DNA from: Kiritimatiellia bacterium
GTDB taxonomy: Bacteria; Verrucomicrobiota; Kiritimatiellia; RFP12; UBA1067
Reading direction: 5' to 3'
NCBI GenBank assembly: GCA_050949565.1
Contig: JBMNFY010000017.1
Coordinates: 1,152,001 to 1,216,000, forward strand
Length of the DNA: 64,000 nucleotides
The position numbers and the translations under genes were made by a program. Under the pieces are notes generated by a model. The model saw nothing but the letters and a program-made list of their open reading frames with translations, did not search any database and was not told the DNA's origin. This document shows, in pieces, positions 605 through 63,864 of this stretch. Every line of letters begins with the position of its first letter. Position 1 is the first letter of the stretch.

Positions 605-2313
<1,709 letters not shown>

Positions 2314-18267: not shown

Positions 18268-18277
18268 GCGATTAAAC

Positions 18278-18393
18278 CCCGGCGGCGTCCTACTCTCCCA
18301 CAGGCGCGTCCTGCAGTACCCTCGGCGATGGGGCCCTTCACTTCCGTGTTCGGGATGGGAACGGGTGTTGCCTCCCCTCCGTGGCCACCGGGA
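18278..18393 (-). rRNA. rrf: 5S rRNA
   Basis: CCCGTTCCCATCCCGAACACGGAAGTGAAG...TGGGAGAGTAGGACGCCGCC on minus strand. Confidence 0.95.
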
Positions 18394-18521
18394 AAACCCG
18401 GCCCGGGCCCTCCGGCCCGGAAAATAAAGACAACGCACAGTCAGGGCGGCAGCAAGAGCCGCGCCGCAAGCGGAAGGGCGGGGATCGCGCCCCCGGCCTT
18501 CAATCAAGTGAAGTTGGAAAA

Positions 18522-21428
<2,907 letters not shown>

Positions 21429-21576
21429 AAGATCGAAACCCTCGCCAATCTCGCTTACGTTGCAACTCTTAAATTGATACCCAGACTGTGCAGTTGTCAA
21501 AGATCAAAACCCGCCCCGCAAACGGGGCAGGAAAACCATGCCGGCCGCGCCTTGCCGAGAGAACCCTTCCGCTGAG

Positions 21577-21653
21577 TGGTGGGCGTGCCTGGAATCGAAC
21601 CAGGGACCTCGTCCTTATCAGGGACGCGCTCTAACCGACTGAGCTACACGCCC
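21577..21653 (-). tRNA. tRNA-Ile (GAT)
   Basis: GGGCGTGTAGCTCAGTCGGTTAGAGCG..CTGATAA..GGTTCGATTCC..ACCA. Confidence 0.96.
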
Positions 21654-21773
21654 GCTTCCGGGGCGCCGGCGCTCCCTCCGGGATTTAGGAGTTAGGATTT
21701 AGGATTCAGGAATTGAAAAGCGCCGCATGCGCGGCAACCACAAATCCCGAACCCCAAACCACAAACCCCGTGG

Positions 21774-21849
21774 TGGTGGAGGCAGCCGGGCTCGAACCGG
21801 CGGCATCCAGCTTGCAAAGCTGGCGCTCTACCAACTGAGCTATGCCCCC
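21774..21849 (-). tRNA. tRNA-Ala (TGC)
   Basis: GGGGGCATAGCTCAGTTGGTAGAGCG..TTTGCAA..GGTTCGAGCC..TCCACCA. Confidence 0.96.
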
Positions 21850-22020
21850 GGCGCGGGGCGTCTCTCTCGACGCGTGTCCAGGCGCTTCGCGGCGGGCCGC
21901 CTCTGCGGCCCGGGGGGGGTGCGGGAGAATCATCCGCCTGCTTCGCTTCCGTCCGGACGCCCTCTTTGAAAAAGGGCGTTCCACCTTCGGCCGCCGCCTC
22001 CCGGCGGGGCCTGTCTCCTT

Positions 22021-23581
<1,561 letters not shown>

Positions 23582-25536: not shown

Positions 25537-26013
25537 CGGCGGCGTGGAACGCCGCCCGGACGAGCAGACGCTCGTCCCTTCCGCGTAGCGGAAGGCGGCT
25601 CGTGAGGACACTCGCCCTCCAGCCTTCGCGTCGCCTCACGATTGCGAGCCACTACGTGGCCGCAATAAGAGAGGTTGACTCGCGACCCGCGACTTGCGAC
25701 TTGCGGCTCCTGAATCACAAATCACAAATTCCAAAAGCCTATTCGCGTCATTCGCGTTATTCGCGGTTCCAACCCGAGCAGCGCCTGGATAAAAAACCGA
25801 ACCATGAAACACATGAAACTTCATGAAAATCAGGGGCTCTCACCTTGGCGTTCTTGGTGCCTTGGCGGTTCCAAAACCCCGAGCCATGCCCCAAAAACTC
25901 CGTGCCTCTGTGGTGAGAAAAAACCCGTGCCGTCAATCGTCCACCAGAGGCGATCCCGATAGCGATGGAATCTTGAAACCTTGGAACCCCGAAACCCTGA
26001 AACCTCGAAACCC
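25537..26013. repeat. mosaic of REP-like palindromes and 7/8/9-mer tandem repeats
   Basis: CGCGACC/TGCGACT 7-mers, ATTCGCGTY x3, CATGAAAC x3, CTTGGCG 9-mers, GAAACCYY 8-mers. Confidence 0.8.
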
Positions 26014-38074: not shown

Positions 38075-38141
38075 GCCATCAGTGTGGCACGGATCGGCGC
38101 GGACTGTAAAGGGAGAAGTGAGAAGAGGGAAGGAGAAAGGA

Positions 38142-38247
38142 AATTTAGGAGTTAAAATTTAGGAGTTAGGAGTTGAATGTCAGGATCGGCGGCTTCGATA
38201 TCGACGGCTCTGCCAAAAACTCCTAATTCCTAAATCCTAACTCCTCA
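38142..38247. repeat. inverted heptamer (TTTAGGA/GTTAGGA) arms forming a long hairpin
   Basis: AATTTAGGAGTTAAAATTTAGGAGTTAGGAGTT ... AACTCCTAATTCCTAAATCCTAACTCCT. Confidence 0.8.
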
Positions 38248-38263
38248 CTGCTATCTCCCCGCG

Positions 38264-42206: not shown

Positions 42207-42298
42207 AAACAAGGAGTATTCTACTTCAGAGTTCAGAGTTCGACGTTCAGCGTTCAGCGTTAAAAAACGTTCAACGCTCAACGTTCAACTTTTAACGC

Positions 42299-43252
42299 TC
42301 AAGTCACAGGCAAAGAGTTGGAAGTTGGAGTTGGATCTGTTTCGGGAGCGGAGAGGGTTGCGCCGAGGAAGGGGGCCATGGCGAACGTGCGCTGCTGTCC
42401 GTCTCGTGCCACCACTTGCAGGAAGTAGCGCTCAAGGCTCATCGCCGGGTACTCTTGTCGCACGCGCCGTCCCGTGCGCGCCTCCAGCTCGGCGCGTACC
42501 GCTGCGGCGTCGGGCTCGTCCAAGCCCTCCACCTCAAAGCGCACGGCGTCCGGCTGGCGCAACAGATCGGCGATCTTGCCCTCGGCGCACAACACACCGC
42601 GATCGAGGATCGCTACACGGTCGCACACGTCTTCGACATCCGCCAGCAGGTGGGAAGTCATGAGCACCGTCACGCCGCCTTTGGCCAGCGCGCAAACGAG
42701 GTCCTTCACCTCGCGGCTGCCGATCGGATCAAGTCCGGAAGTCGGCTCGTCGAGGATCAACAACCTAGGCGCGTTGACCAGCGCCTGGGCCAACCCCACG
42801 CGACGCGCCATGCCCTTTGAAAAGCCGCCCACCGCACGGTCGGCGGCATGTTCGAGATCAACCATAGCCAGCAGCTCGCGTGTGCGTTGCACTGCCTGTG
42901 CGCGCGATAGACCGAAGAGACTGGCGTAGTACATCAGCGTCTCGCGCGGCGTCAGAAAGGTGTGCAGGTGCGAGACCTCAGGCAGATAGCCGATACACGC
43001 CTTGGCATGCGTGTCGTCAGGCGCGGAGCCCAACACGCGGATCGTGCCGGCCGTGGGGCGCAACAGGCCGAGTAGCATTTTGATCGTGGTGCTTTTACCG
43101 GAGCCGTTCGGTCCCAGCAAGCCAAAGACTTCACCGTCGTTGATCGTGAGATCCAGCCCTTTGACCGCCTCCACGGTGGGGCGTCGCCAGAAGTCGCGGA
43201 ACACCTTGCGCAGTCCGCGCGTCTCAATCACTGGTGATTTGCTAGCAGGCAT
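42299..43252 (-). CDS. ABC transporter ATP-binding protein
   Basis: GPNGSGKST, FSKGM, LILDEPTSGLDP, SH. Confidence 0.95.
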   Translation of the reverse strand: MPASKSPVIETRGLRKVFRDFWRRPTVEAVKGLDLTINDGEVFGLLGPNGSGKSTTIKMLLGLLRPTAGTIRVLGSAPDDTHAKACIGYLPEVSHLHTFLTPRETLMYYASLFGLSRAQAVQRTRELLAMVDLEHAADRAVGGFSKGMARRVGLAQALVNAPRLLILDEPTSGLDPIGSREVKDLVCALAKGGVTVLMTSHLLADVEDVCDRVAILDRGVLCAEGKIADLLRQPDAVRFEVEGLDEPDAAAVRAELEARTGRRVRQEYPAMSLERYFLQVVARDGQQRTFAMAPFLGATLSAPETDPTPTSNSLPVT

Positions 43253-44616: not shown

Positions 44617-46287
44617 ATGCTCGTTCAGCTTTCAGTCAAAAATTTGGCCATTGTCGAAATGGCCGAGGTGGTGTTCGGTCCCGGCCTCAACATCATCACC
44701 GGTGAGACCGGCGCGGGCAAGTCGGTGCTTATGGGTGCTTTGGATTTGGTGCTCGGCGGACGCGCTGACAGGTCCGCCGTGCGCGAGGGCGCCTCAGAAG
44801 CCTGGGTAGAGGCCGTGTTCAGCCTCGCCGACAGCCGTGCCGTCGACCGTCTGCTTGATGACGCCAGCCTGCCGCTGTGCGAAGAGGGTGCATTGCTGGT
44901 GCGGCGTTCGGTCGCGGCCGCGGGCGCGGGCCGCTGCTTGGTCAATGACACGCCGACCACGGTTCAGACGCTGCGCCGTCTGGGCAGCCTGCTGGTTGAT
45001 ATCCACGGACCGTACGACCATCAGTCACTGCTTGATCCAGATTTCCAGCGCGATGTGCTGGATGCCTATGGCCATTGCGCCGCCGTGCGCGATGCTTACA
45101 GCGGGGCGTGGCGCGAACTTCAAACGCTGCGCGCGCGCCTGGCTGAATTGCAGGGCGACACCGCCGATATCGAGGCCGAGATCGACCGCTTGCAGTTTAT
45201 GGTCGACGAGATTTCAAGCGCGGGGCTGAGTGAAGATGACGAGGAGCCTTTAGTCGCCCAGCACGCCGAGGCCGCCAACGCCGAGCAGATCCTCGCAGTG
45301 GGCACGGCGATCTGCAACGGACTGATAGACGGCGAACAGTCGGCCTTTGACCTGCTGGCCGGGATCCAGACGCAACTTACCGAGCTGGCGCACATCCTGC
45401 CCGAGGCCGCCGCCTGGCGCACCGACGCGCAGGCCGCCGCCGTCCAAATCCAAGAGGTAGGACGCGCCGTCGCCGACCGACTCATCCGGATCGAGGCCGA
45501 TCCCGACCGCCTGCAGCAGCTTGAGGCGCGCATGGCTTTGGTCCAAAGGCTAAAGCGCAAATACGGGCGCACCGTCGGCGACGTACTGGCCACGCTCGCC
45601 GAACATCAAGCGCGCCTGCACGACTTGGCAACGCGCACCGAACAGGTCGAACGCTTGCAGACCGATATCGCAGAGGCTGAGGGTGTCCTTACCCGTAAGG
45701 CTGACGCGCTCACCAAGAGCCGTACGCAGGCCGCCGGTAAACTGGCCCGCGCAATCACCAAAGAGTTGCACGACCTCGGCTTCCTCAAATCCGGCTTCGC
45801 GGTGGACCTCGCGGCCTGTGCGCCGGGGCCGCACGGCGCGGACCTCATCTCATTCGGTTTCGCCCCCAACCCCGGCGAGCCGATGCGACCGCTGAAAGCC
45901 ATCGCCTCCAGCGGCGAGATCTCGCGCGTCATGCTCGCCGTCAAAGCGGTACTCGCCGCGCATGACAGCATCCCCGTACTGGTGTTTGATGAGATCGACG
46001 CCAACATCGGCGGCGAGATCGGGCGCGTCGTGGGCCAGAAGATGCGTCATGTGGCCGAAACCCACCAGGTCATCTCCATCACGCACCTGCCGCAGTCCGC
46101 CGTCTACGGCCACCAGCACTACGTGGTTTCAAAAGAGGTGGTCAAAGGACGCACGCGTATGCGCGTCGAGGCACTTGACGATGCGCACCGCGTCGACGAA
46201 ATCGCGCGCATGCTCGGCGGCAAAGGGCTGACCAGCGTAATCGAAAGCCACGCCCGCGAACTACTCGCCTCTGCGAGAGAGAAGTGA
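44617..46287 (+). CDS. recN: DNA repair protein RecN
   Basis: TGETGAGKS, ASSGEISR, FDEIDANIGG, ITHLPQ, EIARMLGG. Confidence 0.96.
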   Translation: MLVQLSVKNLAIVEMAEVVFGPGLNIITGETGAGKSVLMGALDLVLGGRADRSAVREGASEAWVEAVFSLADSRAVDRLLDDASLPLCEEGALLVRRSVAAAGAGRCLVNDTPTTVQTLRRLGSLLVDIHGPYDHQSLLDPDFQRDVLDAYGHCAAVRDAYSGAWRELQTLRARLAELQGDTADIEAEIDRLQFMVDEISSAGLSEDDEEPLVAQHAEAANAEQILAVGTAICNGLIDGEQSAFDLLAGIQTQLTELAHILPEAAAWRTDAQAAAVQIQEVGRAVADRLIRIEADPDRLQQLEARMALVQRLKRKYGRTVGDVLATLAEHQARLHDLATRTEQVERLQTDIAEAEGVLTRKADALTKSRTQAAGKLARAITKELHDLGFLKSGFAVDLAACAPGPHGADLISFGFAPNPGEPMRPLKAIASSGEISRVMLAVKAVLAAHDSIPVLVFDEIDANIGGEIGRVVGQKMRHVAETHQVISITHLPQSAVYGHQHYVVSKEVVKGRTRMRVEALDDAHRVDEIARMLGGKGLTSVIESHARELLASAREK

Positions 46288-46405
46288 TAGGTAAGATGTA
46301 ATAGGTAACCGGTAGGTAAGAAGCAGTAGGCAGTAGGCAATAGGCAATAGGCAAAAACTCCTAAATCCTAAATATTAACTCTGGCCTTCGCGTCGCGCGC
46401 GGCGG

Positions 46406-54990: not shown

Positions 54991-55027
54991 CAAATGGACT
55001 TCAAATTACCTGTCCCTTAAGGCAAAC

Positions 55028-55133: not shown

Positions 55134-55584
55134 TGAAGGGCAGGGGTACAATAAACGGGACGGAGATGAAAGACCAAAAATTTTAAATTTTCGCTCCACT
55201 TAGTCGTTTTACACTGCTATCCCACGAAAAATCTGCGAAATCTGCGCCATCTGCGGATCAAAAAACCGAGCCATGCCAGAAACCAGAGAGCGTTGAGATT
55301 TCAACTGCCGGTTTTAGGCTAAATACCTGTCCCTTTGTCGTCCCTTAGTTGCACAAGATTGGTGCCGGGCTGTGTGGCACGGGCATCTTGCCCGTGTGGC
55401 GGCGTGAAACGCCGCCCGGACGAGCAACGCTCGTCCCTCCCGGCACTCCGCGAGCCGCGCCACTTAGTATGGTCTAAATACCTGTCCCTTAGTCGTCGAT
55501 GCCCGCCTTACGCGGAAAGAGTCGCCAGCGGCGAGTGGTTACGCCCGTGAGCAGACCTTTGCGGCCTTATCCTGACGAAAGCGT

Positions 55585-55707: not shown

Positions 55708-55923
55708 ATGGCCGAGATGGAAGACCGCTGGTTATCAGTAGACGAGATAGGCAAGTACCTCGGTGTCAGTAGTGACACCGTTTACCGCTGGATCGACAAG
55801 CATGCGATGCCCGCCCATCGCATGGGCCGCCTCTGGAAGTTCAAGAAGGATGAGGTGGACGAATGGGTAAAGGCCGGTGGCGCGGCCGAGCCTGCGGAAA
55901 CAGACAAGAAGCGCAAGGAGTAA
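55708..55923 (+). CDS. excisionase-like (HTH_17) DNA-binding protein
   Basis: WLSVDEI..YLGVS.DTVYRWI....MPAHR.GRLWKF. Confidence 0.88.
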   Translation: MAEMEDRWLSVDEIGKYLGVSSDTVYRWIDKHAMPAHRMGRLWKFKKDEVDEWVKAGGAAEPAETDKKRKE

Positions 55924-55932
55924 TAACGGGCT

Positions 55933-58107
55933 ATGAACCATGTGATCCACAACAGCATCGTGAATTTTATCTGGGGTATCGCCGACGACGTGCTGCGCGA
56001 TGTTTATGTGCGCGGCAAGTACCGCGACGTGATCCTGCCGATGACGGTCATCCGCCGTCTCGACGCGCTCTTGGAGCCGAGCAAGGAAAAGGTGCTCGGC
56101 ATGAAGAAGCAGCTCGACGGGGCCGGGATCGCCAACCAGCACGCCGCGCTCTGCCAGGCCGCAGGCGAGGCCTTTTACAACGTCTCGCCCTTTACCCTGC
56201 GCGACCTGAAGAACCGCGCCAAGCAACAACAGCTCAAGGCCGATTTCGAAGCGTATCTGGACGGCTTTTCGCCCAACGTCCAGGAGATCCTCGACAAGTT
56301 CAAGTTCCGCAACCAGATCCCGACCTTGATCGAGGCCGACATCCTCGGCCACCTGATCGAGAAGTTCCTCGACAACCGCGTCAACCTCAGCCCCAAGCCG
56401 GTGCAGGACGTGGACGGCAACGAGCTTCTTCCGGCGCTCGACAACCACTCGATGGGCACCATCTTCGAGGAGCTGATCCGCCGCTTCAACGAGGAGAACA
56501 ACGAAGAGGCCGGAGAGCACTTCACGCCCCGCGACGTGGTCAAGCTCATGGCCGACCTGATCTTCCTGCCGGTGGCCGACGATATCGAGTCGGGCGCCTA
56601 CCTTGTTTACGACGGGGCCTGCGGCACCGGCGGAATGCTGACAGTGGCTGAAGAGCGCTTGGCCGAGCTGGCCGAAAGCCACGGCAAGGATGTCTCCATT
56701 CATCTGTTCGGCCAGGAGGTGCAGCCGGAAACCTACGCCATCTCCAAGGCCGACCTGCTGCTCAAAGGCGAAGGGGCCGAGGCGGAGAACATGAAGTACG
56801 GCTCCACGCTCTCCAGCGATGCCTTCCCGTCGCAGGAATTCGATTTCATGCTCTCCAATCCGCCCTATGGCAAGAGCTGGAAGACCGACCTGGAGCGCCT
56901 GGGCGGCAAGGGCGATATCAAGGACCCGCGCTTTGTCACCCAGCACGGTGGCGACCCGGAATACAAGATGATCACCCGCTCCTCGGACGGGCAGCTCATG
57001 TTCCTGGTCAATAAGCTCTCCAAGATGAAGCACACTACCCGCCTCGGCAGCCGCATCGCCGAGATTCACAACGGCTCGTCGCTCTTCACCGGCGACGCCG
57101 GTCAGGGCGAGAGCAATATCCGCCGCTGGATCATCGAGAACGACTGGCTGGAGGCCATCATCGCCCTGCCGGAGAACATGTTCTACAACACCGGCATCGC
57201 CACCTACATCTGGGTGCTGACCAACCGCAAGTCTGATACGCGCCGGGGCAAGGTCCAGCTCATTGACGCCACCGAATGGTACGTGCCGCTGCGGCGCAAC
57301 CTCGGCAAGAAAAATTGCGAACTCTCCGAAGAGCAGATTCAAACCATTGTCGATCTGGTGGTCAATCCCCGCGAGACCGAGAAATCCAAGATCTTCCCCA
57401 ACGAGGCCTTCGGCTACTGGAAGGTGACGGTGGACCGTCCGCTGCGCCTCGCTGTCGACCTGAGTCCGGCCCGGCTGGAACGGTTCGAGCGGGCCTGCGC
57501 CAAGGCCAAGGAAGAACCGCTGGCCAACCTGGCCCACCGCGTGGCCGAGACGCTTGGAACCGGGCCGCATCTGGATTTCAACGCCTTCATGGACGCCGTT
57601 GAGGCCGATGCCGACAAGCACAGCGTGAAGCTCACCGCCAAGCGCAAGAAGCTGCTGCAGAGCGACCTCTGCGACACCAGCGAGGACGCCGCGCCGGTGC
57701 TGAAGAAGGTTCACAAGCCGGGCAAGACCACGCCAGACCCCATGATTGGGAAGTTTGAAGTGGGAAGTTTGAAATGTGAGCAGGATAAACGTCACCCCTC
57801 ACATCTGTCCCTTCCCCCTTCTTCTGTAGTCGAATACGAGCCAGATACCGCCCTACGCGACAGCGAACAGGTACCGCTGCTGGAAGAGGGCGGCATTGAG
57901 GCATTCTTCCGGCGAGAGGTGCTGCCCTACACCCCAGATGCCTGGATTGATCCGGACAAGACCCAGATTGGCTATGAGATTTCTTTTACCCGGCATTTCT
58001 ACAAACCCGCACCTATGCGTACCCTAAAGGAAATCACGGCCGATATCTACGCGCTGGAGCAGGAGACCGAAGGGCTTCTGGAACAGATTGTCGGGGAGGC
58101 TCAGTGA
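55933..58107 (+). CDS. hsdM: type I R-M methyltransferase subunit
   Basis: GEHFTPRDV, YDGACGTGGML, NPPY motif IV. Confidence 0.96.
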   Translation: MNHVIHNSIVNFIWGIADDVLRDVYVRGKYRDVILPMTVIRRLDALLEPSKEKVLGMKKQLDGAGIANQHAALCQAAGEAFYNVSPFTLRDLKNRAKQQQLKADFEAYLDGFSPNVQEILDKFKFRNQIPTLIEADILGHLIEKFLDNRVNLSPKPVQDVDGNELLPALDNHSMGTIFEELIRRFNEENNEEAGEHFTPRDVVKLMADLIFLPVADDIESGAYLVYDGACGTGGMLTVAEERLAELAESHGKDVSIHLFGQEVQPETYAISKADLLLKGEGAEAENMKYGSTLSSDAFPSQEFDFMLSNPPYGKSWKTDLERLGGKGDIKDPRFVTQHGGDPEYKMITRSSDGQLMFLVNKLSKMKHTTRLGSRIAEIHNGSSLFTGDAGQGESNIRRWIIENDWLEAIIALPENMFYNTGIATYIWVLTNRKSDTRRGKVQLIDATEWYVPLRRNLGKKNCELSEEQIQTIVDLVVNPRETEKSKIFPNEAFGYWKVTVDRPLRLAVDLSPARLERFERACAKAKEEPLANLAHRVAETLGTGPHLDFNAFMDAVEADADKHSVKLTAKRKKLLQSDLCDTSEDAAPVLKKVHKPGKTTPDPMIGKFEVGSLKCEQDKRHPSHLSLPPSSVVEYEPDTALRDSEQVPLLEEGGIEAFFRREVLPYTPDAWIDPDKTQIGYEISFTRHFYKPAPMRTLKEITADIYALEQETEGLLEQIVGEAQ

Positions 58108-59471
58108 TGAAGCTGGCTCCTTATCCAGAATACAAGGATTCTGGTGTTCCGTGGTTAGGGAAGATACCGGCGCACTGGGAACTACATCGTGGAAAATGGC
58201 TTTTTCGCAAAATGGAAAGGCCGGTTCGCTCGCAAGATGAAGTAGTCACATGCTTTCGCGATGGAACAGTTACCTTGCGAAAGAATCGTCGAATCCGGGG
58301 CTTTACCGAATCTCTCAAGGAAATCGGATACCAAGGTATTCGCAAAGGCGATCTGGTTATCCATCAAATGGATGCCTTTGCTGGCGCAGTTGGGGTATCT
58401 GACTCCGATGGGAAGGGGACTCCAGTTTATTCTGTTTGTCTCCCCAAAAGAGATTTAGACACGCATTACTACGCACAACTGGTGCGTGAGATGTCTCGCT
58501 CGTATTTTATAACTTCGCTTGCAAAGGGTATCAGGGAGAGATCAACAGATTTTCGATTCGATACCTTCGCGTCACTAACGCTCCCCGTTCCTTTGCCGGA
58601 AGAGCAAAAGGCAATTTCTCGGTTCATGAGAAATGAATCCGCACAGATCAACAAATTCATCCGCAACAAGCGGCGGCTCATCGAACTGCTCAAGGAGCAG
58701 AAGCAGAACGTCATCAACCAGGCCGTGACCCGGGGGCTTGATCCCAAGGTCAAGTTCAAGCCCAGCGGCGTGGAATGGATCGGAGATATTCCGGAGCATT
58801 GGGAGGTTCGCCGACTCAAGTTCTTGTGCCACAACCTGAATGAACAAACTTCCGAAAAACAGCCAGGCGAGACGTATATAGCTCTTGAACACGTAGAAAG
58901 CTGGACCGGCAGGATTTCACTACCTGATGACGAGATCACCTTTGATAGTCAGGTGAAACGTTTTCAGCCCGGTGATGTTTTGTTCGGAAAGCTACGCCCG
59001 TATCTGGCGAAGGTAACACGGCCACAGACCGCTGGAGTTTGTGTAGGCGAGTTTCTGGTTTTGCGAGCGACCGGAGATGTATCGGCTGATTTCCTTGAAC
59101 AAAAGCTTCGTTCAAAACGCGTAATTGATCTGATTAACAGCTCAACATTTGGGGCAAAAATGCCCCGGGCTGATTGGACATTCATAGGCAATCTGAAGTT
59201 TGCGTATCCACCTGCGGACGAGCAGCGAGAAATTCTTGAGCACATCCAGGAAAAGTCAGCGGAAATCGACCAGGCCATTATCCGTGCCCAACGTGAAATC
59301 GAACTGATGCGCGAGTACCGCACCAGGCTGATTTCCGATGTGGTCACCGGCCAGGTGGATGTGAGAAATGTGAAGTGTGAAGGGGGAAGTTTGAATGAAG
59401 ATGAGTTCGAGGATATTGAAGAGGTAGAGGAAGAAATCGAATTGCCGGAAGGTGGAGAGGATGACGAATAA
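58104..59471 (+). CDS. hsdS: type I R-M specificity subunit
   Basis: YKDSGVPWLGKIP.HW and KPSGVEWIGDIPEHW conserved blocks, two lower-GC TRDs, EYRTRLISDVVTG. Confidence 0.95.
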   Translation: MMKLAPYPEYKDSGVPWLGKIPAHWELHRGKWLFRKMERPVRSQDEVVTCFRDGTVTLRKNRRIRGFTESLKEIGYQGIRKGDLVIHQMDAFAGAVGVSDSDGKGTPVYSVCLPKRDLDTHYYAQLVREMSRSYFITSLAKGIRERSTDFRFDTFASLTLPVPLPEEQKAISRFMRNESAQINKFIRNKRRLIELLKEQKQNVINQAVTRGLDPKVKFKPSGVEWIGDIPEHWEVRRLKFLCHNLNEQTSEKQPGETYIALEHVESWTGRISLPDDEITFDSQVKRFQPGDVLFGKLRPYLAKVTRPQTAGVCVGEFLVLRATGDVSADFLEQKLRSKRVIDLINSSTFGAKMPRADWTFIGNLKFAYPPADEQREILEHIQEKSAEIDQAIIRAQREIELMREYRTRLISDVVTGQVDVRNVKCEGGSLNEDEFEDIEEVEEEIELPEGGEDDE

Positions 59472-59832
59472 ACAGCCTCCTGAAATAACTGCGAGGGCCT
59501 TTGAATTTGCGGTGCGAATCGTAAAGCTGTGTCAACACCTTGACGAGTCCCCAGGCGTAGCGAGGACCCTTGCCAGGCAGCTTATCCGTTCCGGCACATC
59601 GATTGGCGCGAATCTGGAAGAAGGGAAAGGCGCTCAGTCGGAAGCGGATTATCTGACCAAGTGTTCCATAGCGTGCAAGGAAGCCCGGGAAACCCTGTAT
59701 TGGCTAAGGTTGCTTGCCGCGTCGGAAATCCTGACGACAAATCGTCTTTCGGAAATAACAAAAGAATGCGACGAGCTGGTAGCCATTCTCACCAGCATTA
59801 CCAAACGGCTGAAGGAGAAACAGAATGGCTAA
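59461..59832 (+). CDS. four-helix-bundle protein (TIGR02436 / 23S-IVS-protein / Avd-like)
   Basis: RAFEFAVRIVKL...QLIRSGTSIGANLEE......DYL.K..IA.KEA.ET.YWLRLL. Confidence 0.92.
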   Translation: MTNKQPPEITARAFEFAVRIVKLCQHLDESPGVARTLARQLIRSGTSIGANLEEGKGAQSEADYLTKCSIACKEARETLYWLRLLAASEILTTNRLSEITKECDELVAILTSITKRLKEKQNG

Positions 59833-60862
59833 GAATTCTTCACCCCTCACCCCTCACACTTCAAACTTCTACCGAGCCCTTTTGGGCGAGGTAAAAGAGC
59901 GCATCCGCTCCGCCCAGTATGAAGCCCTCAAGGCGGTCAACAAGGAGCTGGTCGGCCTGTACTGGGACATCGGGCGGCTGATCGTGGAGCGGCAGGATGT
60001 TGAAGGCTGGGGCAAGGCGGTGGTGGAACAGCTCGCCGCCGATCTGCGGACGGAGTTTCCCGGCGTGGGTGGCTTTTCGGCCTCCAACCTCTGGCGGATG
60101 AAGGCCTTTTTCGAGGCGTACACCGGCCTGGAAAAACTCGCACCACTGGTGCGAGAAATCGGCTGGAGCCACAACCTGGCTATCCTGGAGCGCTGCAAGG
60201 ACCCGCTGGAGCGGGAATTCTATCTGCGCATGACCCGCAAGTTCGGCTGGTCCAAGAATGTCCTCATTCACCAGATCGACAACCAGAGCTATGAAAAATC
60301 CCTGCTGGGCCAGACCAACTTCGACCAGGCGCTGACGCCGGAACTTCGCGCCCAGGCCAAGCTGGCGGTGAAGGACGAATACACCTTCGATTTTCTGGAA
60401 CTGGGCGAGGAACACAGCGAGCGGGAGCTGGAGCGGGCGCTCATCGCCCGGATCGAGGATTTCCTCCGGGCCATGGGCGGCATGTTCGCCTTCATGGGCA
60501 GCCAATACCGGCTGGAGGTGGACGGCAAAGAGTTTTTCATCGACCTCTTGTTGTTTCACCGCCGTCTGCGCTGCCTTGTCGCCATTGAATTGAAAGTCGG
60601 CGAATTCCTGCCGGAGTTCGTCGGCAAGATGCAGTTTTATCTGGCGGCTCTGGACCGGCAGATCCGCCAGGAGGACGAGAACCCCTCCATCGGTATCATC
60701 CTGTGCAAGGAGAAGAGCCGCACGATTGTGGAATACGCCCTGCACGACGCCCGCAAGCCCATCGGCGTGGCCACTTATGAAATCACCAAGACCCTGCCCA
60801 AGGCGCTGAAAGGCCAACTGCCGTCACCGAAGGACATCGCCCATTTGCTGGAGGACCTATGA
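59825..60862 (+). CDS. YhcG-like DUF1016 PD-(D/E)XK nuclease domain protein
   Basis: LYWDIGRLI, GWG...V..LA.DL, GFS..NL..M..F, WSHN, KDEYTFDFL, IDLLLFHR.L...AIELK. Confidence 0.92.
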   Translation: MAKNSSPLTPHTSNFYRALLGEVKERIRSAQYEALKAVNKELVGLYWDIGRLIVERQDVEGWGKAVVEQLAADLRTEFPGVGGFSASNLWRMKAFFEAYTGLEKLAPLVREIGWSHNLAILERCKDPLEREFYLRMTRKFGWSKNVLIHQIDNQSYEKSLLGQTNFDQALTPELRAQAKLAVKDEYTFDFLELGEEHSERELERALIARIEDFLRAMGGMFAFMGSQYRLEVDGKEFFIDLLLFHRRLRCLVAIELKVGEFLPEFVGKMQFYLAALDRQIRQEDENPSIGIILCKEKSRTIVEYALHDARKPIGVATYEITKTLPKALKGQLPSPKDIAHLLEDL

Positions 60863-63800
60863 AACCGACCGACACCAGCGAAAAGGGCCTGGAGTCCATC
60901 ATCGTCGCGTCCCTCGTGGAGGAGGCCGGATACGTTCAGGGTGATCCGCAGGACTACGACCGGGAACACGCTGTCGACCTGGCCAAGCTGCTGCAATTCC
61001 TCTCCGCCACCCAGCCCGAGACCTATGAGGCTCTTGGCATCGGCGAGGAAGACGGCTCTTCCAATCCTCGGCGCACCCAGTTTCTGCAGCGCCTGCAGGG
61101 CGAGATCGCCAAGCGCGGCGTGGTAGACGTGCTGCGCGGCGGCATCAAGCACGGCCCGGCCCATGTGGACCTTTTCTACGGCACGCCGACGCCGGGCAAC
61201 GTGAAGGCGGCCGAACGGTTCGCGGCCAACATCTTCAGCGTCACCCGCCAACTTCGCTACAGCCGCAACGAGACCGCGCTCTCCCTCGACATGGCCGTAT
61301 TCATCAACGGCCTGCCCATCGCCACCTTCGAACTCAAAAATAAGCTCACCAAGCAGACGGTGCTCGATGCCGTGCAGCAGTACCAGCGCGACCGCGACCC
61401 GAAGGAGCTGCTGTTCCAGTTCGGCCGTTGCGTCGTTCATTTTGCCGTGGACGATCACGAGGTGCGTTTTTGCACCCACCTCAAGGGCAAGGGCTCGTGG
61501 TTTCTGCCCTTCAACAAGGGCTACAACGACGGCGCGGGCAATCCGCCCAACCCTGATGGGCTCGCCACCGACTACCTGTGGAAGGAGACCCTCTCCAAAG
61601 AGGGGTTGACCGATATCCTGGAAAACTACGCCCAGGTGGTGGAGGAAAAGGACGAGAAGACCGGCAAAAAGCGATACAAGCAGATCTTCCCCCGTTACCA
61701 CCAGTTGAAGGTGGTGCGCATGCTGCTGGCCAATGCCGCCGAGAGCGGCATCGGCAGGCGCTACCTGATCCAGCACTCGGCGGGCAGCGGCAAAAGTAAC
61801 TCCATCGCCTGGCTGGCGCACCAGCTCGTGGGGCTGGAACACGAGAGCAAGGCGTTGTTCGACTCGGTCATTGTGGTCACCGACCGGCGGGTGCTCGACA
61901 AACAGATCCGCGACACCATCAAGCAGTTCGCCCAGGTTTCCGCCACCGTCGGCCATGCCGAGCATTCCGGCGACCTGCGCCGCTTCCTCAAGGCCGGTAA
62001 GAAAATTATCATCACCACGGTGCAGAAGTTCCCGTTCATCCTCGATGAGATCGGCGACGAACACCGTAAGAGCAAGTTCGCCATCATCATCGACGAGGCC
62101 CATTCCAGCCAGGGCGGCAAGACCACTGCCGCGATGAATCGTGTGCTGGAAGAGACCGCGCCCTACGGCGGCTCTGATGACGAGGGGGAAGAGACGGTCG
62201 AGGACAAGATCAATAAGATCATGGAAGGCCGGAAGATGGTGACCAACGCCAGCTACTTCGCTTTCACCGCGACTCCCAAGAACAAGACCCTGGAGATCTT
62301 CGGCGAGCCGGACCCGCAGCCCGACGGAACCGTGAAGCACCACCCGTTCCACAGCTACACGATGAAACAGGCCATCCAGGAGGGCTTCATCCTCGATGTG
62401 CTGAAGAACTACACCCCGGTGGAGAGCTATTACCGCCTGGCCAAGACCGTGGAGGACGACCCGCTCTTCGACGCCAACAAGGCACAGAAAAAGCTGCGCC
62501 GCTATGTGGAGTCCCATGAGCACGCCATCCGCGAGAAGGCGGAGATCATGGTGGACCACTTCCACGCCCAGGTGATCGGCCACCGCAAGATCGGCGGCCA
62601 TGCCCGGGCCATGGTCATCACCAACGGTATCGAGCGGGCCATTCAGTATTTCCACGCCTTCAAGGACTACCTCAAGGAGCGCAAAAGCCCTTACGAGCCC
62701 ATCGTGGCTTTTTCCGGAGAGCATGAGTACGGCGGCAAAAAGGTCACCGAAGCGACCCTGAACGGCTTCCCCAGCAGTCAGATCCCGGACAAGGTTCAGC
62801 AGGACCCGTACCGCTTCCTGATCGTCGCCGACAAGTTCCAGACCGGCTACGACGAACCGCTGCTGCACACCATGTACGTGGACAAGGCGCTCTCCGGCAT
62901 CAAGGCGGTGCAGACCCTCTCGCGCCTCAATCGCGCCCACCCGCAGAAGCACGACACCTTTGTACTCGATTTCTACAACGACTCGGAGACCATCCAGAAG
63001 TCGTTCGAGCCCTATTACCGGACCACCATCCTCAGTGACGAGACCGACCCCAACAAGCTCCATGATCTGAAGTCGGATCTGGACGGCTACCAGGTCTATT
63101 CGCAGGCGCAAATCGACGATCTGGTGGGGCTTTACCTGAACGGCGCGGACCGCGACAAGCTCGACCCGATCCTGGATGCCTGCGTGGCCACCTACAACGC
63201 CGATCTTGATGAGGACGGCCAGGTGGACTTCAAAGGCAAGGCCAAGGCCTTCGTGCGCACCTACGGCTTTCTGTCCTCGATTCTGGCGTACTCGAGTGCC
63301 GACTGGGAAAAGCTGTCGATCTTCCTGAACTTCCTGATTCCGAAGCTTCCCGCGCCCAAGGAAGAGGACCTGTCCCGGGGCATCCTGGAGGCCATCGACA
63401 TGGACAGCTACCGTGTCGAGGTGAAAACCAGCCTGAAGATCGGCCTTCCAGATCAGGATGCCGAAATCGGACCGGTGCCGACCAGCGGCGGTGGCCGCAA
63501 ACCGGAACCGGAGTTGGACCAACTGAGCAATATCATCAAGGCGTTCAACGACCAGTTCGGCAACATCGATTGGAAGGACGGCGACAAGATCCGCAAGGTC
63601 ATCGCTGAGGAGATCCCGGCCAAGGTCGCGGCGGACGCGGCCTACCAGAACGCCATGAAGAACAACGATAAGAAGACCGCCCGGATCGAACACGACGCCG
63701 CGCTGCAGCGCGTCATGATCGACCTCTTGTCCGACCACACCGAGCTGTTCAAGCAGTTCAGCGACAACCCGTCGTTCAAGAAATGGCTGGGCGACACCAT

Positions 63801-63864
63801 CTTCGGCGTGACTTATCAGCAACAGGCCGAACAATCCGCAACGGGGGCGAGCCATGGACGTTAA
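60859..63864 (+). CDS. hsdR: type I R-M restriction subunit
   Basis: NGLPIATFELKN nuclease, QHSAGSGKS, DEAH, FTATP, KFQTGYDEP. Confidence 0.96.
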   Translation: MKPTDTSEKGLESIIVASLVEEAGYVQGDPQDYDREHAVDLAKLLQFLSATQPETYEALGIGEEDGSSNPRRTQFLQRLQGEIAKRGVVDVLRGGIKHGPAHVDLFYGTPTPGNVKAAERFAANIFSVTRQLRYSRNETALSLDMAVFINGLPIATFELKNKLTKQTVLDAVQQYQRDRDPKELLFQFGRCVVHFAVDDHEVRFCTHLKGKGSWFLPFNKGYNDGAGNPPNPDGLATDYLWKETLSKEGLTDILENYAQVVEEKDEKTGKKRYKQIFPRYHQLKVVRMLLANAAESGIGRRYLIQHSAGSGKSNSIAWLAHQLVGLEHESKALFDSVIVVTDRRVLDKQIRDTIKQFAQVSATVGHAEHSGDLRRFLKAGKKIIITTVQKFPFILDEIGDEHRKSKFAIIIDEAHSSQGGKTTAAMNRVLEETAPYGGSDDEGEETVEDKINKIMEGRKMVTNASYFAFTATPKNKTLEIFGEPDPQPDGTVKHHPFHSYTMKQAIQEGFILDVLKNYTPVESYYRLAKTVEDDPLFDANKAQKKLRRYVESHEHAIREKAEIMVDHFHAQVIGHRKIGGHARAMVITNGIERAIQYFHAFKDYLKERKSPYEPIVAFSGEHEYGGKKVTEATLNGFPSSQIPDKVQQDPYRFLIVADKFQTGYDEPLLHTMYVDKALSGIKAVQTLSRLNRAHPQKHDTFVLDFYNDSETIQKSFEPYYRTTILSDETDPNKLHDLKSDLDGYQVYSQAQIDDLVGLYLNGADRDKLDPILDACVATYNADLDEDGQVDFKGKAKAFVRTYGFLSSILAYSSADWEKLSIFLNFLIPKLPAPKEEDLSRGILEAIDMDSYRVEVKTSLKIGLPDQDAEIGPVPTSGGGRKPEPELDQLSNIIKAFNDQFGNIDWKDGDKIRKVIAEEIPAKVAADAAYQNAMKNNDKKTARIEHDAALQRVMIDLLSDHTELFKQFSDNPSFKKWLGDTIFGVTYQQQAEQSATGASHGR

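What the first reader, a model, noticed from the sequence alone, without database searches (positions are those of the whole stretch)
57748..57826. 'Empty' copy of the same heptamer hairpin in-frame inside hsdM
Seen: AAGTTTG AAGTGGG AAGTTTG AAATGTG AG, a short loop, then CACCCCT CACATCT GTCCCTT CCCCCTT C. These are the same units as the arms around the four-helix-bundle gene 1.6 kb away. The segment encodes a low-complexity peptide (KFEVGSLKCEQDKRHPSHLSLPPSS) between DP..G and VVEYEPD and breaks the local GC-rich codon usage. Inference: a non-autonomous gene-less form of the cassette, or a scar after excision, tolerated in a surface loop. It suggests the repeats spread locally.
Basis: partly seen in the sequence, partly recalled or inferred. 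Interest (0 to 1): 0.75.

Follow-up and report, generated by a model that had tools for sequence, protein, structure and literature searches.

The report
Repeat hairpin lodged in methyltransferase gene
A short DNA hairpin built from the same seven-base repeat that flanks a small neighbouring gene has replaced a surface loop of a DNA-methylating enzyme without breaking its reading frame, and the same pattern recurs in unrelated bacteria, probably as a tolerated selfish passenger.

Summary
Window 57749-57825 is an imperfect inverted pair of heptamer arrays (unit KGARRKK), in frame in a type I hsdM. It turns a 14-residue beta-hairpin, kept in 113 of 120 nearest homologues, into 28 residues. Its left arm matches the left arm of the four-helix-bundle (PF05635, 23S-IVS/Avd-like) cassette 1.6 kb away at 24 of 28 bases; arrays of this unit occur nowhere else in 64 kb. 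The insert did not arise here: the same allele is in Verrucomicrobia, Lentisphaeria and Desulfobulbus, with arms gained, lost or decayed, and the Desulfobulbus locus has no cassette. No gene-filled allele was found, so the excision-scar idea is unsupported. The pattern is general: all 9 plasmid four-helix records fetched have heptamer arms with their own unit, and in Dolichospermum and Chlorohelix that unit recurs in frame in neighbouring methyltransferase and helicase genes. Best reading: a neutral, gene-less copy of cassette arms, kept by a permissive loop and spread with a mobile restriction module. Local copying is plausible but confounded by import of whole modules. The parts are known separately; I did not find their link in print.

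The parts
55708..55923 (+). Excisionase-like HTH gene heading the restriction-modification module
   Evidence: PF12728, TIGR01764
55933..58107 (+). hsdM, type I methyltransferase subunit, 724 aa, frame intact; hosts the hairpin
   Evidence: PF02384, PF12161; 120 homologues listed
57749..57780 (+). Left arm of the empty hairpin, 4 KGARRKK units, coding GKFEVGSLKCE
57781..57792 (+). Short spacer (loop) with no gene
57793..57825 (+). Right arm, decayed complement of the unit, coding HPSHLSLPPSS
   Evidence: cleaner in L013 and L027
58104..59471 (+). hsdS; its 3' end carries the cassette's left arm in frame
   Evidence: PF01420; no arm in L027 or at the 3' end of L013 hsdS
59357..59395 (+). Left heptamer arm of the four-helix-bundle cassette
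   Evidence: (I1, D1)
59452..59832 (+). Four-helix-bundle gene (23S rRNA IVS protein family, Avd-like)
   Evidence: PF05635 E 3e-23, TIGR02436, PDB 2rld E 6e-22
59836..59870 (+). Right heptamer arm of the cassette, inside the 5' end of the DUF1016/YhcG ORF
59825..60862 (+). DUF1016/YhcG PDDEXK nuclease gene
   Evidence: PF06250, PF17761
60859..63864 (+). hsdR
   Evidence: PF04313, PF04851, TIGR00348

Best explanation
A neutral, gene-less copy of the heptamer arms of an IVS-type four-helix-bundle cassette. Step 1 (inferred): in an ancestor of this mobile type I module, arm units were copied from a cassette in or near the same operon into hsdM by a non-transposase route (template switching or illegitimate recombination on a few bases of similarity), replacing the tip of a beta-hairpin. 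Step 2 (shown as allele variation; slippage is the inferred cause): the arms gained, lost and mutated units; only in-frame outcomes survive. Step 3 (inferred from the model and the intact frame): the peptide is tolerated because it sits between two strands of a C-terminal domain, about 120 residues past the methylase domain, and the left arm even supplies the G-x-F-E of the first strand. Step 4 (shown): the allele now occurs in at least three phyla, with or without the cassette, so it travels with the module.
For: Derived and polymorphic: 113 of 120 top homologues have 14 residues; 5 carry this hairpin family with loops of 28, 28, 28, 42 and 23. Five more protein clusters carry it or a relative (P0124, P0271-P0274). 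3 of 33 GTDB loci carry it, all empty. Same-unit arrays lie within 2 kb in the window, L003 (hsdS 3' end) and L013 (a second in-frame hairpin in the hsdS linker), against none in 450 kb of the 30 non-carrier loci. Hairpin not required: P0055 has lost the left arm, P0003 and the window have decayed right arms, and fold z is only -1.5 to -1.9 in 3 of 4 DNA alleles. Permissive site: strands at 607-609 and 632-635, pLDDT 75-92 around the loop; unrelated palindrome-like peptides sit in the same loop in P0014, P0123, P0155, P0165 and P0132. General pattern: inverted heptamer arms around the four-helix gene in 9 of 9 plasmid records fetched; the same unit in frame in neighbouring methyltransferase or helicase genes in L041 and L038; two cassettes 2.4 kb apart in L047 have different units, with the extra copies beside their own cassette.
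Against: No mobilising enzyme or intermediate is shown. L027 has the hairpin with no cassette in its 8 kb contig. 2 of 6 wide plasmid loci show no extra same-unit copies. Another unit (TTAGGAK type) is spread over 44 kb of the window with no four-helix gene seen beside it, so such repeats also disperse widely and 'local' may only mark an imported block. The left arm is well conserved across the four DNA alleles, which could reflect selection. L003 and the L013 hsdS hairpin fold strongly (z about -4). The direction of copying (cassette to hsdM or the reverse) is not determined.
Confidence: 0.55

Rival explanations
1. Imported block, no local spread: the module passed through a donor genome where this heptamer was abundant everywhere and picked up the cassette and the empty hairpins independently. 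The cassette is then just another passenger between the arms.
For: The allele crosses phyla. The host's own arrays use other units and are dispersed. Genome-wide heptamer families in and between genes are described for Geobacter metallireducens and Beggiatoaceae (PMC2700814, PMC4679880).
Against: In L047 two neighbouring cassettes keep different units, with extra copies next to their own. In L042, 10 arrays lie in 6.4 kb and none of that unit in the other 34 kb.
Confidence: 0.2
2. Excision or collapse scar: a full cassette once sat in hsdM and its interior was deleted by slippage across the extruded stem, restoring the frame.
For: Both arms are present, in the same orientation as in the cassette, and the left arms match at 24/28.
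Against: No filled allele in 3 carrier loci or 10 carrier protein clusters. A gene there would split hsdM (inference). Single-arm in-frame arrays in L041 cannot be such scars.
Confidence: 0.1
3. Functional RNA or contingency element: the hairpin tunes the polycistronic hsd message (RNase III cut site or binding site for the four-helix pentamer), or heptamer slippage switches the methyltransferase on and off.
For: RNase III cuts the heptamer-bearing stem of the Coxiella IVS (PMC4990558). PF05635 resembles the Avd protein of retroelements (PMC10053308). In L041 one array shifts the frame of a methyltransferase gene. Inserts recur in restriction-modification genes.
Against: Most homologues lack it, one carrier lacks an arm, the stem is weak in three alleles, and the arrays are short and impure here. 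No terminator- or promoter-like site at the hairpin. The L041 shift may be an assembly error.
Confidence: 0.12
4. Chance low-complexity loop of the protein.
For: The fold is only about 2 SD better than shuffles.
Against: Period-7 DNA, match to the cassette arm, low GC3, and cleaner arrays in L013 and L027.
Confidence: 0.02

Closest known systems
23S rRNA intervening sequence with S23p/four-helix ORF (Coxiella, Leptospira; PF05635, TIGR02436)
   Same: Same protein family between inverted arms; tandem heptamers of variable copy number in the 5' stem region of the Coxiella IVS (PMC4990558, passages).
   Different: Here the cassette is in a restriction-modification operon, not rRNA, and the finding is a gene-less copy inside a protein-coding frame. 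Nothing shows RNase III excision.
Heptamer repeat families: Geobacter metallireducens multicopy sequences, Beggiatoaceae TAACTGA repeats, cyanobacterial STRR
   Same: Short tandem heptamer or octamer arrays, often paired on opposite strands, between and within genes (PMC2700814 passages; PMC4679880 sections 3 and 15). STRR is recalled, not read.
   Different: PMC4679880 has no mention of four-helix or IVS proteins (term search); in PMC2700814 I searched only repeat terms and did not see such a link in the passages shown. In-ORF copies in PMC4679880 lie mostly at protein ends; this one replaces an internal beta-hairpin and has crossed phyla.
Rickettsia palindromic elements (RPE) and bacterial MITEs
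   Same: Gene-less palindrome in frame in a conserved enzyme, apparently near-neutral (PMC2229807, passages).
   Different: RPEs are 105-146 bp conserved units; this is about 75 bp of tandem heptamers, variable in length, with no target duplication and no transposase link.
Phase-variable type I RM loci (hsdS shufflons; simple-repeat switches)
   Same: Repeats inside hsd genes; direct and inverted copies bracket hsdS.
   Different: One hsdS, no recombinase among the six module genes annotated, arms imperfect. The defining features are recalled.

Membership tests
23S rRNA IVS (S23p type) | PF05635/TIGR02436 ORF between inverted arms | tested here: met
   Met for the cassette at 59357-59870; the hairpin itself has no ORF of its own
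23S rRNA IVS (S23p type) | Located in a 23S rRNA helix | tested here: not met
   Rfam places 23S at 18522-21427; cassette and hairpin are in the hsd operon
23S rRNA IVS (S23p type) | Excised from RNA by RNase III | not testable with these tools
   Needs RNA-end mapping or an in vitro assay
Bacterial MITE / RPE-like element | Gene-less, under 200 bp, inverted ends forming a stem-loop | tested here: met
   weak stem (z about -2)
Bacterial MITE / RPE-like element | Target-site duplication or TA termini | tested here: not met
   Longest word shared by the two flanks is 4 nt; the loop is replaced, not cleanly interrupted
Bacterial MITE / RPE-like element | Ends shared with an IS whose transposase mobilises it | not tested
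   No transposase among the six module genes scanned; the rest of the window and genome was not searched for one
Bacterial MITE / RPE-like element | Many near-identical dispersed copies | tested here: inconclusive
   One empty copy in 64 kb; rest of the genome unavailable
STRR-like heptamer repeat family | Tandem 7-nt units, variable copy number, in and between genes | tested here: met
   family definition partly recalled
Phase-variable type I RM (shufflon) | Several hsdS copies plus a site-specific recombinase | tested here: not met
   One hsdS and no recombinase in 55708-63864
Diversity-generating retroelement | Reverse transcriptase with TR/VR pair beside the Avd-like gene | tested here: not met
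   The genes flanking the four-helix gene are hsdS and DUF1016; no RT in the module. Other window ORFs were not scanned against Pfam

The most novel reading that the evidence does not exclude
Four-helix-bundle (Avd-like) cassettes are transposase-free selfish elements whose protein recognises heptamer-armed RNA or single-stranded DNA and promotes copying of its own arm unit into co-transcribed neighbours. Empty hairpins such as this one would be its non-autonomous progeny, and would explain the origin of the STRR-type heptamer families and give PF05635 a function.
Probability: 0.15. Interest if true: 0.85.

Novelty: new variant of a known kind. Interest (0 to 1): 0.5.

Why it matters
Heptamer arrays in bacteria and the abundant four-helix-bundle (IVS) protein both lack a known mechanism. 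This locus family gives matched empty, filled and remodelled alleles of one site across phyla, one carrier being a deposited strain (Desulfobulbus alkaliphilus DSM 24258, although its hsdM looks frameshifted in the assembly). It also shows that a cassette's own unit recurs in neighbouring defence genes with three different units in three lineages. That makes the link between the protein and the repeats testable. For HsdM itself the insert is probably harmless, and it marks a permissive loop.

Tried and rejected
Search for a gene-filled allele: none in 3 carrier loci of 33, among 4 hits of 6 candidates at near length, or among 5 hits of 6 shorter candidates. The GTDB pattern demanded the carrier-type right junction, so other junctions were invisible; longer proteins were not searched. 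Plasmid blastn found only the downstream hsdM flank (5 records). Rfam: no family at the site. The full-length AlphaFold model was poor (pLDDT 59) and was replaced by a C-terminal model (86.5); Foldseek found no PDB match for that domain at E 0.001, and PDB sequence hits stop near residue 480, so loop position rests on the model alone and solvent exposure was not computed. Trees of the flanks scatter the carriers, but one origin is not rejected (AU p 0.156, 8 carriers against 36 non-carriers, 105 columns). No target duplication; no promoter or terminator signal at the hairpin. A crude clustering product (0.001) is not relied on: the loci were hand-picked, the two loci without extra arrays were left out of it, and module import confounds it. 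Cluster membership of the carrier proteins, and metagenome and viral contigs, stayed unchecked.

Full report
Observation. The quoted units are in the window at 57751-57821, inside a 724-aa ORF at 55933-58107 that is a type I HsdM (PF02384, PF12161). The module runs HTH, hsdM, hsdS, four-helix-bundle gene (PF05635, TIGR02436), DUF1016/YhcG, hsdR. The two arms of the insert are 75% complementary over 24 nt with 17 nt between them. Runs of three or more units fitting KGARRKK occur at only three places in 64 kb: the hsdM left arm and the two cassette arms; 100 shuffles gave none (the unit was defined from these arms). The hsdM left arm matches the cassette left arm at 24 of 28 bases, and no other array in the window exceeds 16 of 21. 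GC3 falls from 0.82 to 0.40. The stem is weak (z about -2) because the right arm has decayed.

It is derived and shared. Of the 120 best homologues listed, 113 have 14 residues between DPxxG and YEPD, one has 15, five carry this hairpin family (28, 28, 28, 42, 23 residues) and one carries an unrelated palindrome-like peptide. The search was ranked on a region that includes the insert, so carriers are over-represented. Among the 150 distant representatives listed (of 253), 31 could not be aligned on both flanks and 109 of the other 119 have 14 residues. A search of shorter proteins gave 5 hits of 6 candidates, all carriers, including P0274 (52% identity), whose 38-residue loop begins at the same GKFEV junction but has different arms. 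A GTDB scan for the carrier-type right junction gave 33 loci, three with the hairpin: L003 (Lentisphaeria), L013 (Verrucomicrobia) and L027 (Desulfobulbus alkaliphilus). Their hsdM DNA is 80-95% identical to the window in 150-nt blocks. L013 and L027 have cleaner right arms, and L003 has 42 extra bases on the right side. All are empty. The window's closest relatives just upstream of the loop lack the insert (96%), hinting at recombination, but a single origin is not rejected (AU p 0.156).

Structure. A model of residues 485-724 (98 sequences, pLDDT 86.5) puts strands at 607-609 and 632-635 with the insert between them, well beyond the methylase domain (171-483). No solved structure covers this domain. 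The insert replaces about 11 codons with 25 and keeps G-x-F-E; there is no target duplication. Other palindrome-like peptides occupy the same loop in P0014, P0123, P0132, P0155 and P0165, and P0250 may hold a different heptamer (their DNA was not seen). The loop is therefore a repeatedly colonised permissive site (inference).

Link to the cassette. L003 has the same left arm at the hsdS 3' end (its contig ends there), and L013 has a second, strongly folding in-frame hairpin of the same unit in the hsdS linker (z -4.1); L027 has neither arm nor four-helix gene between hsdS and hsdR. The 30 non-carrier loci have no such array in 450 kb and no four-helix hit. These carriers are kin, so this is not four independent events. 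For independent cases I fetched 9 of 31 plasmid records with a four-helix hit. All nine have inverted heptamer arms, each with its own unit; the Chondrinema arms are degenerate and judged by eye. In Dolichospermum (L041) and Chlorohelix (L038) the cassette's unit recurs in frame inside the adjacent helicase and methyltransferase genes, in L038 as a two-armed hairpin. One L041 array shifts the frame of the methyltransferase. In six wide loci (20 kb flanks; one cut to 23.7 kb), four had 16 extra same-unit arrays, all within 7.4 kb of the gene, and two had none (assignment of arrays to arms is mine). In L047 two cassettes 2.4 kb apart have different units and the extra copies lie by their own cassette. 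Against local copying: a different unit is spread over 44 kb of the window with no four-helix gene seen beside it, so clustering may reflect import of a repeat-rich module.

Mechanism. Most likely (0.55) the hairpin is a neutral gene-less copy of cassette arms, made once or a few times by template switching or illegitimate recombination, remodelled by slippage under selection for frame, and spread by transfer of the module. The copying step and its direction are inferred; polymorphism, frame retention, remodelling and cross-phylum spread are shown. Rivals: block import without local spread (0.2), functional RNA or phase-variation element (0.12), excision scar (0.1), chance (0.02).

Known context. 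Heptamers of variable copy number occur in the stem region of the Coxiella 23S IVS, which encodes this protein family and is cut by RNase III (PMC4990558; passages). Paired heptamer and octamer arrays within and between genes were listed for Geobacter metallireducens (PMC2700814; passages; supplements not opened, and they may bear on this). TAACTGA repeats in ORFs are described in PMC4679880 (abstract and sections 3 and 15; no mention of four-helix or IVS). In-frame near-neutral palindromes are known as RPEs (PMC2229807; passages). PF05635 resembles DGR Avd (PMC10053308; passages). Cyanobacterial STRR work is recalled only. Nine searches found no paper linking four-helix cassettes to same-unit in-frame copies in neighbouring genes; the library omits most subscription journals.

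Verdict. Real, derived and part of a general pattern; it works like an RPE-type in-frame passenger built from IVS-cassette arms, but fails the MITE (no target duplication) and IVS (not in rRNA) membership tests. New variant of a known kind; interest 0.5.

Noticed in passing
window 7133-51177 (for example 7141, 21676-21771, 25674-25771, 36951, 38105-38258, 42221-42302, 46287-46383, 50985, 51144): Many other 7-, 8- and 9-base tandem arrays with different units, several as inverted pairs between genes; one pair lies between two tRNA genes in the rRNA spacer.
   Followed up: partly
window 18277-23581: Complete rRNA operon on the minus strand (16S, two tRNAs, 23S, 5S); the 23S match is 2906 nt, so no large IVS.
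   Followed up: no
window 59357-59395 and 59836-59870: The cassette's arms are themselves translated: the left in the hsdS C-terminal tail, the right in the DUF1016 N-terminus.
   Followed up: partly
L013 8930-9025: Second in-frame hairpin of the same unit in the central linker of hsdS, folding strongly (z -4.1).
   Followed up: partly
L027 about 2860-2935: hsdM of Desulfobulbus alkaliphilus changes frame near residues 414-437, upstream of the hairpin; may be an assembly error.
   Followed up: no
L041 4231-4284: A heptamer array shifts the frame of a Dolichospermum plasmid methyltransferase, which is annotated as two CDSs.
   Followed up: partly
P0002, P0018, P0124, P0272, P0073 (HsdM C-terminal domain): Other short palindrome-like peptide inserts at two further sites of the same domain.
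   Followed up: no
L003 about 700-1070 (minus strand): A short extra ORF, RhuM-like by recall, lies between hsdM and hsdS in this carrier and is absent from the window.
   Followed up: no
L035/L045 19992-20339; L039 3001-3306: Four-helix cassettes also sit between cas1 and cas2 (Anabaena) and between hsdS and hsdR (Monoglobus), suggesting a liking for defence operons.
   Followed up: partly
window 55007-55018, 55327-55338, 55481-55491; 55404-55437 and 25546-25580: A short repeated word three times upstream of the RM module, and a dispersed palindromic repeat seen twice in the window.
   Followed up: no
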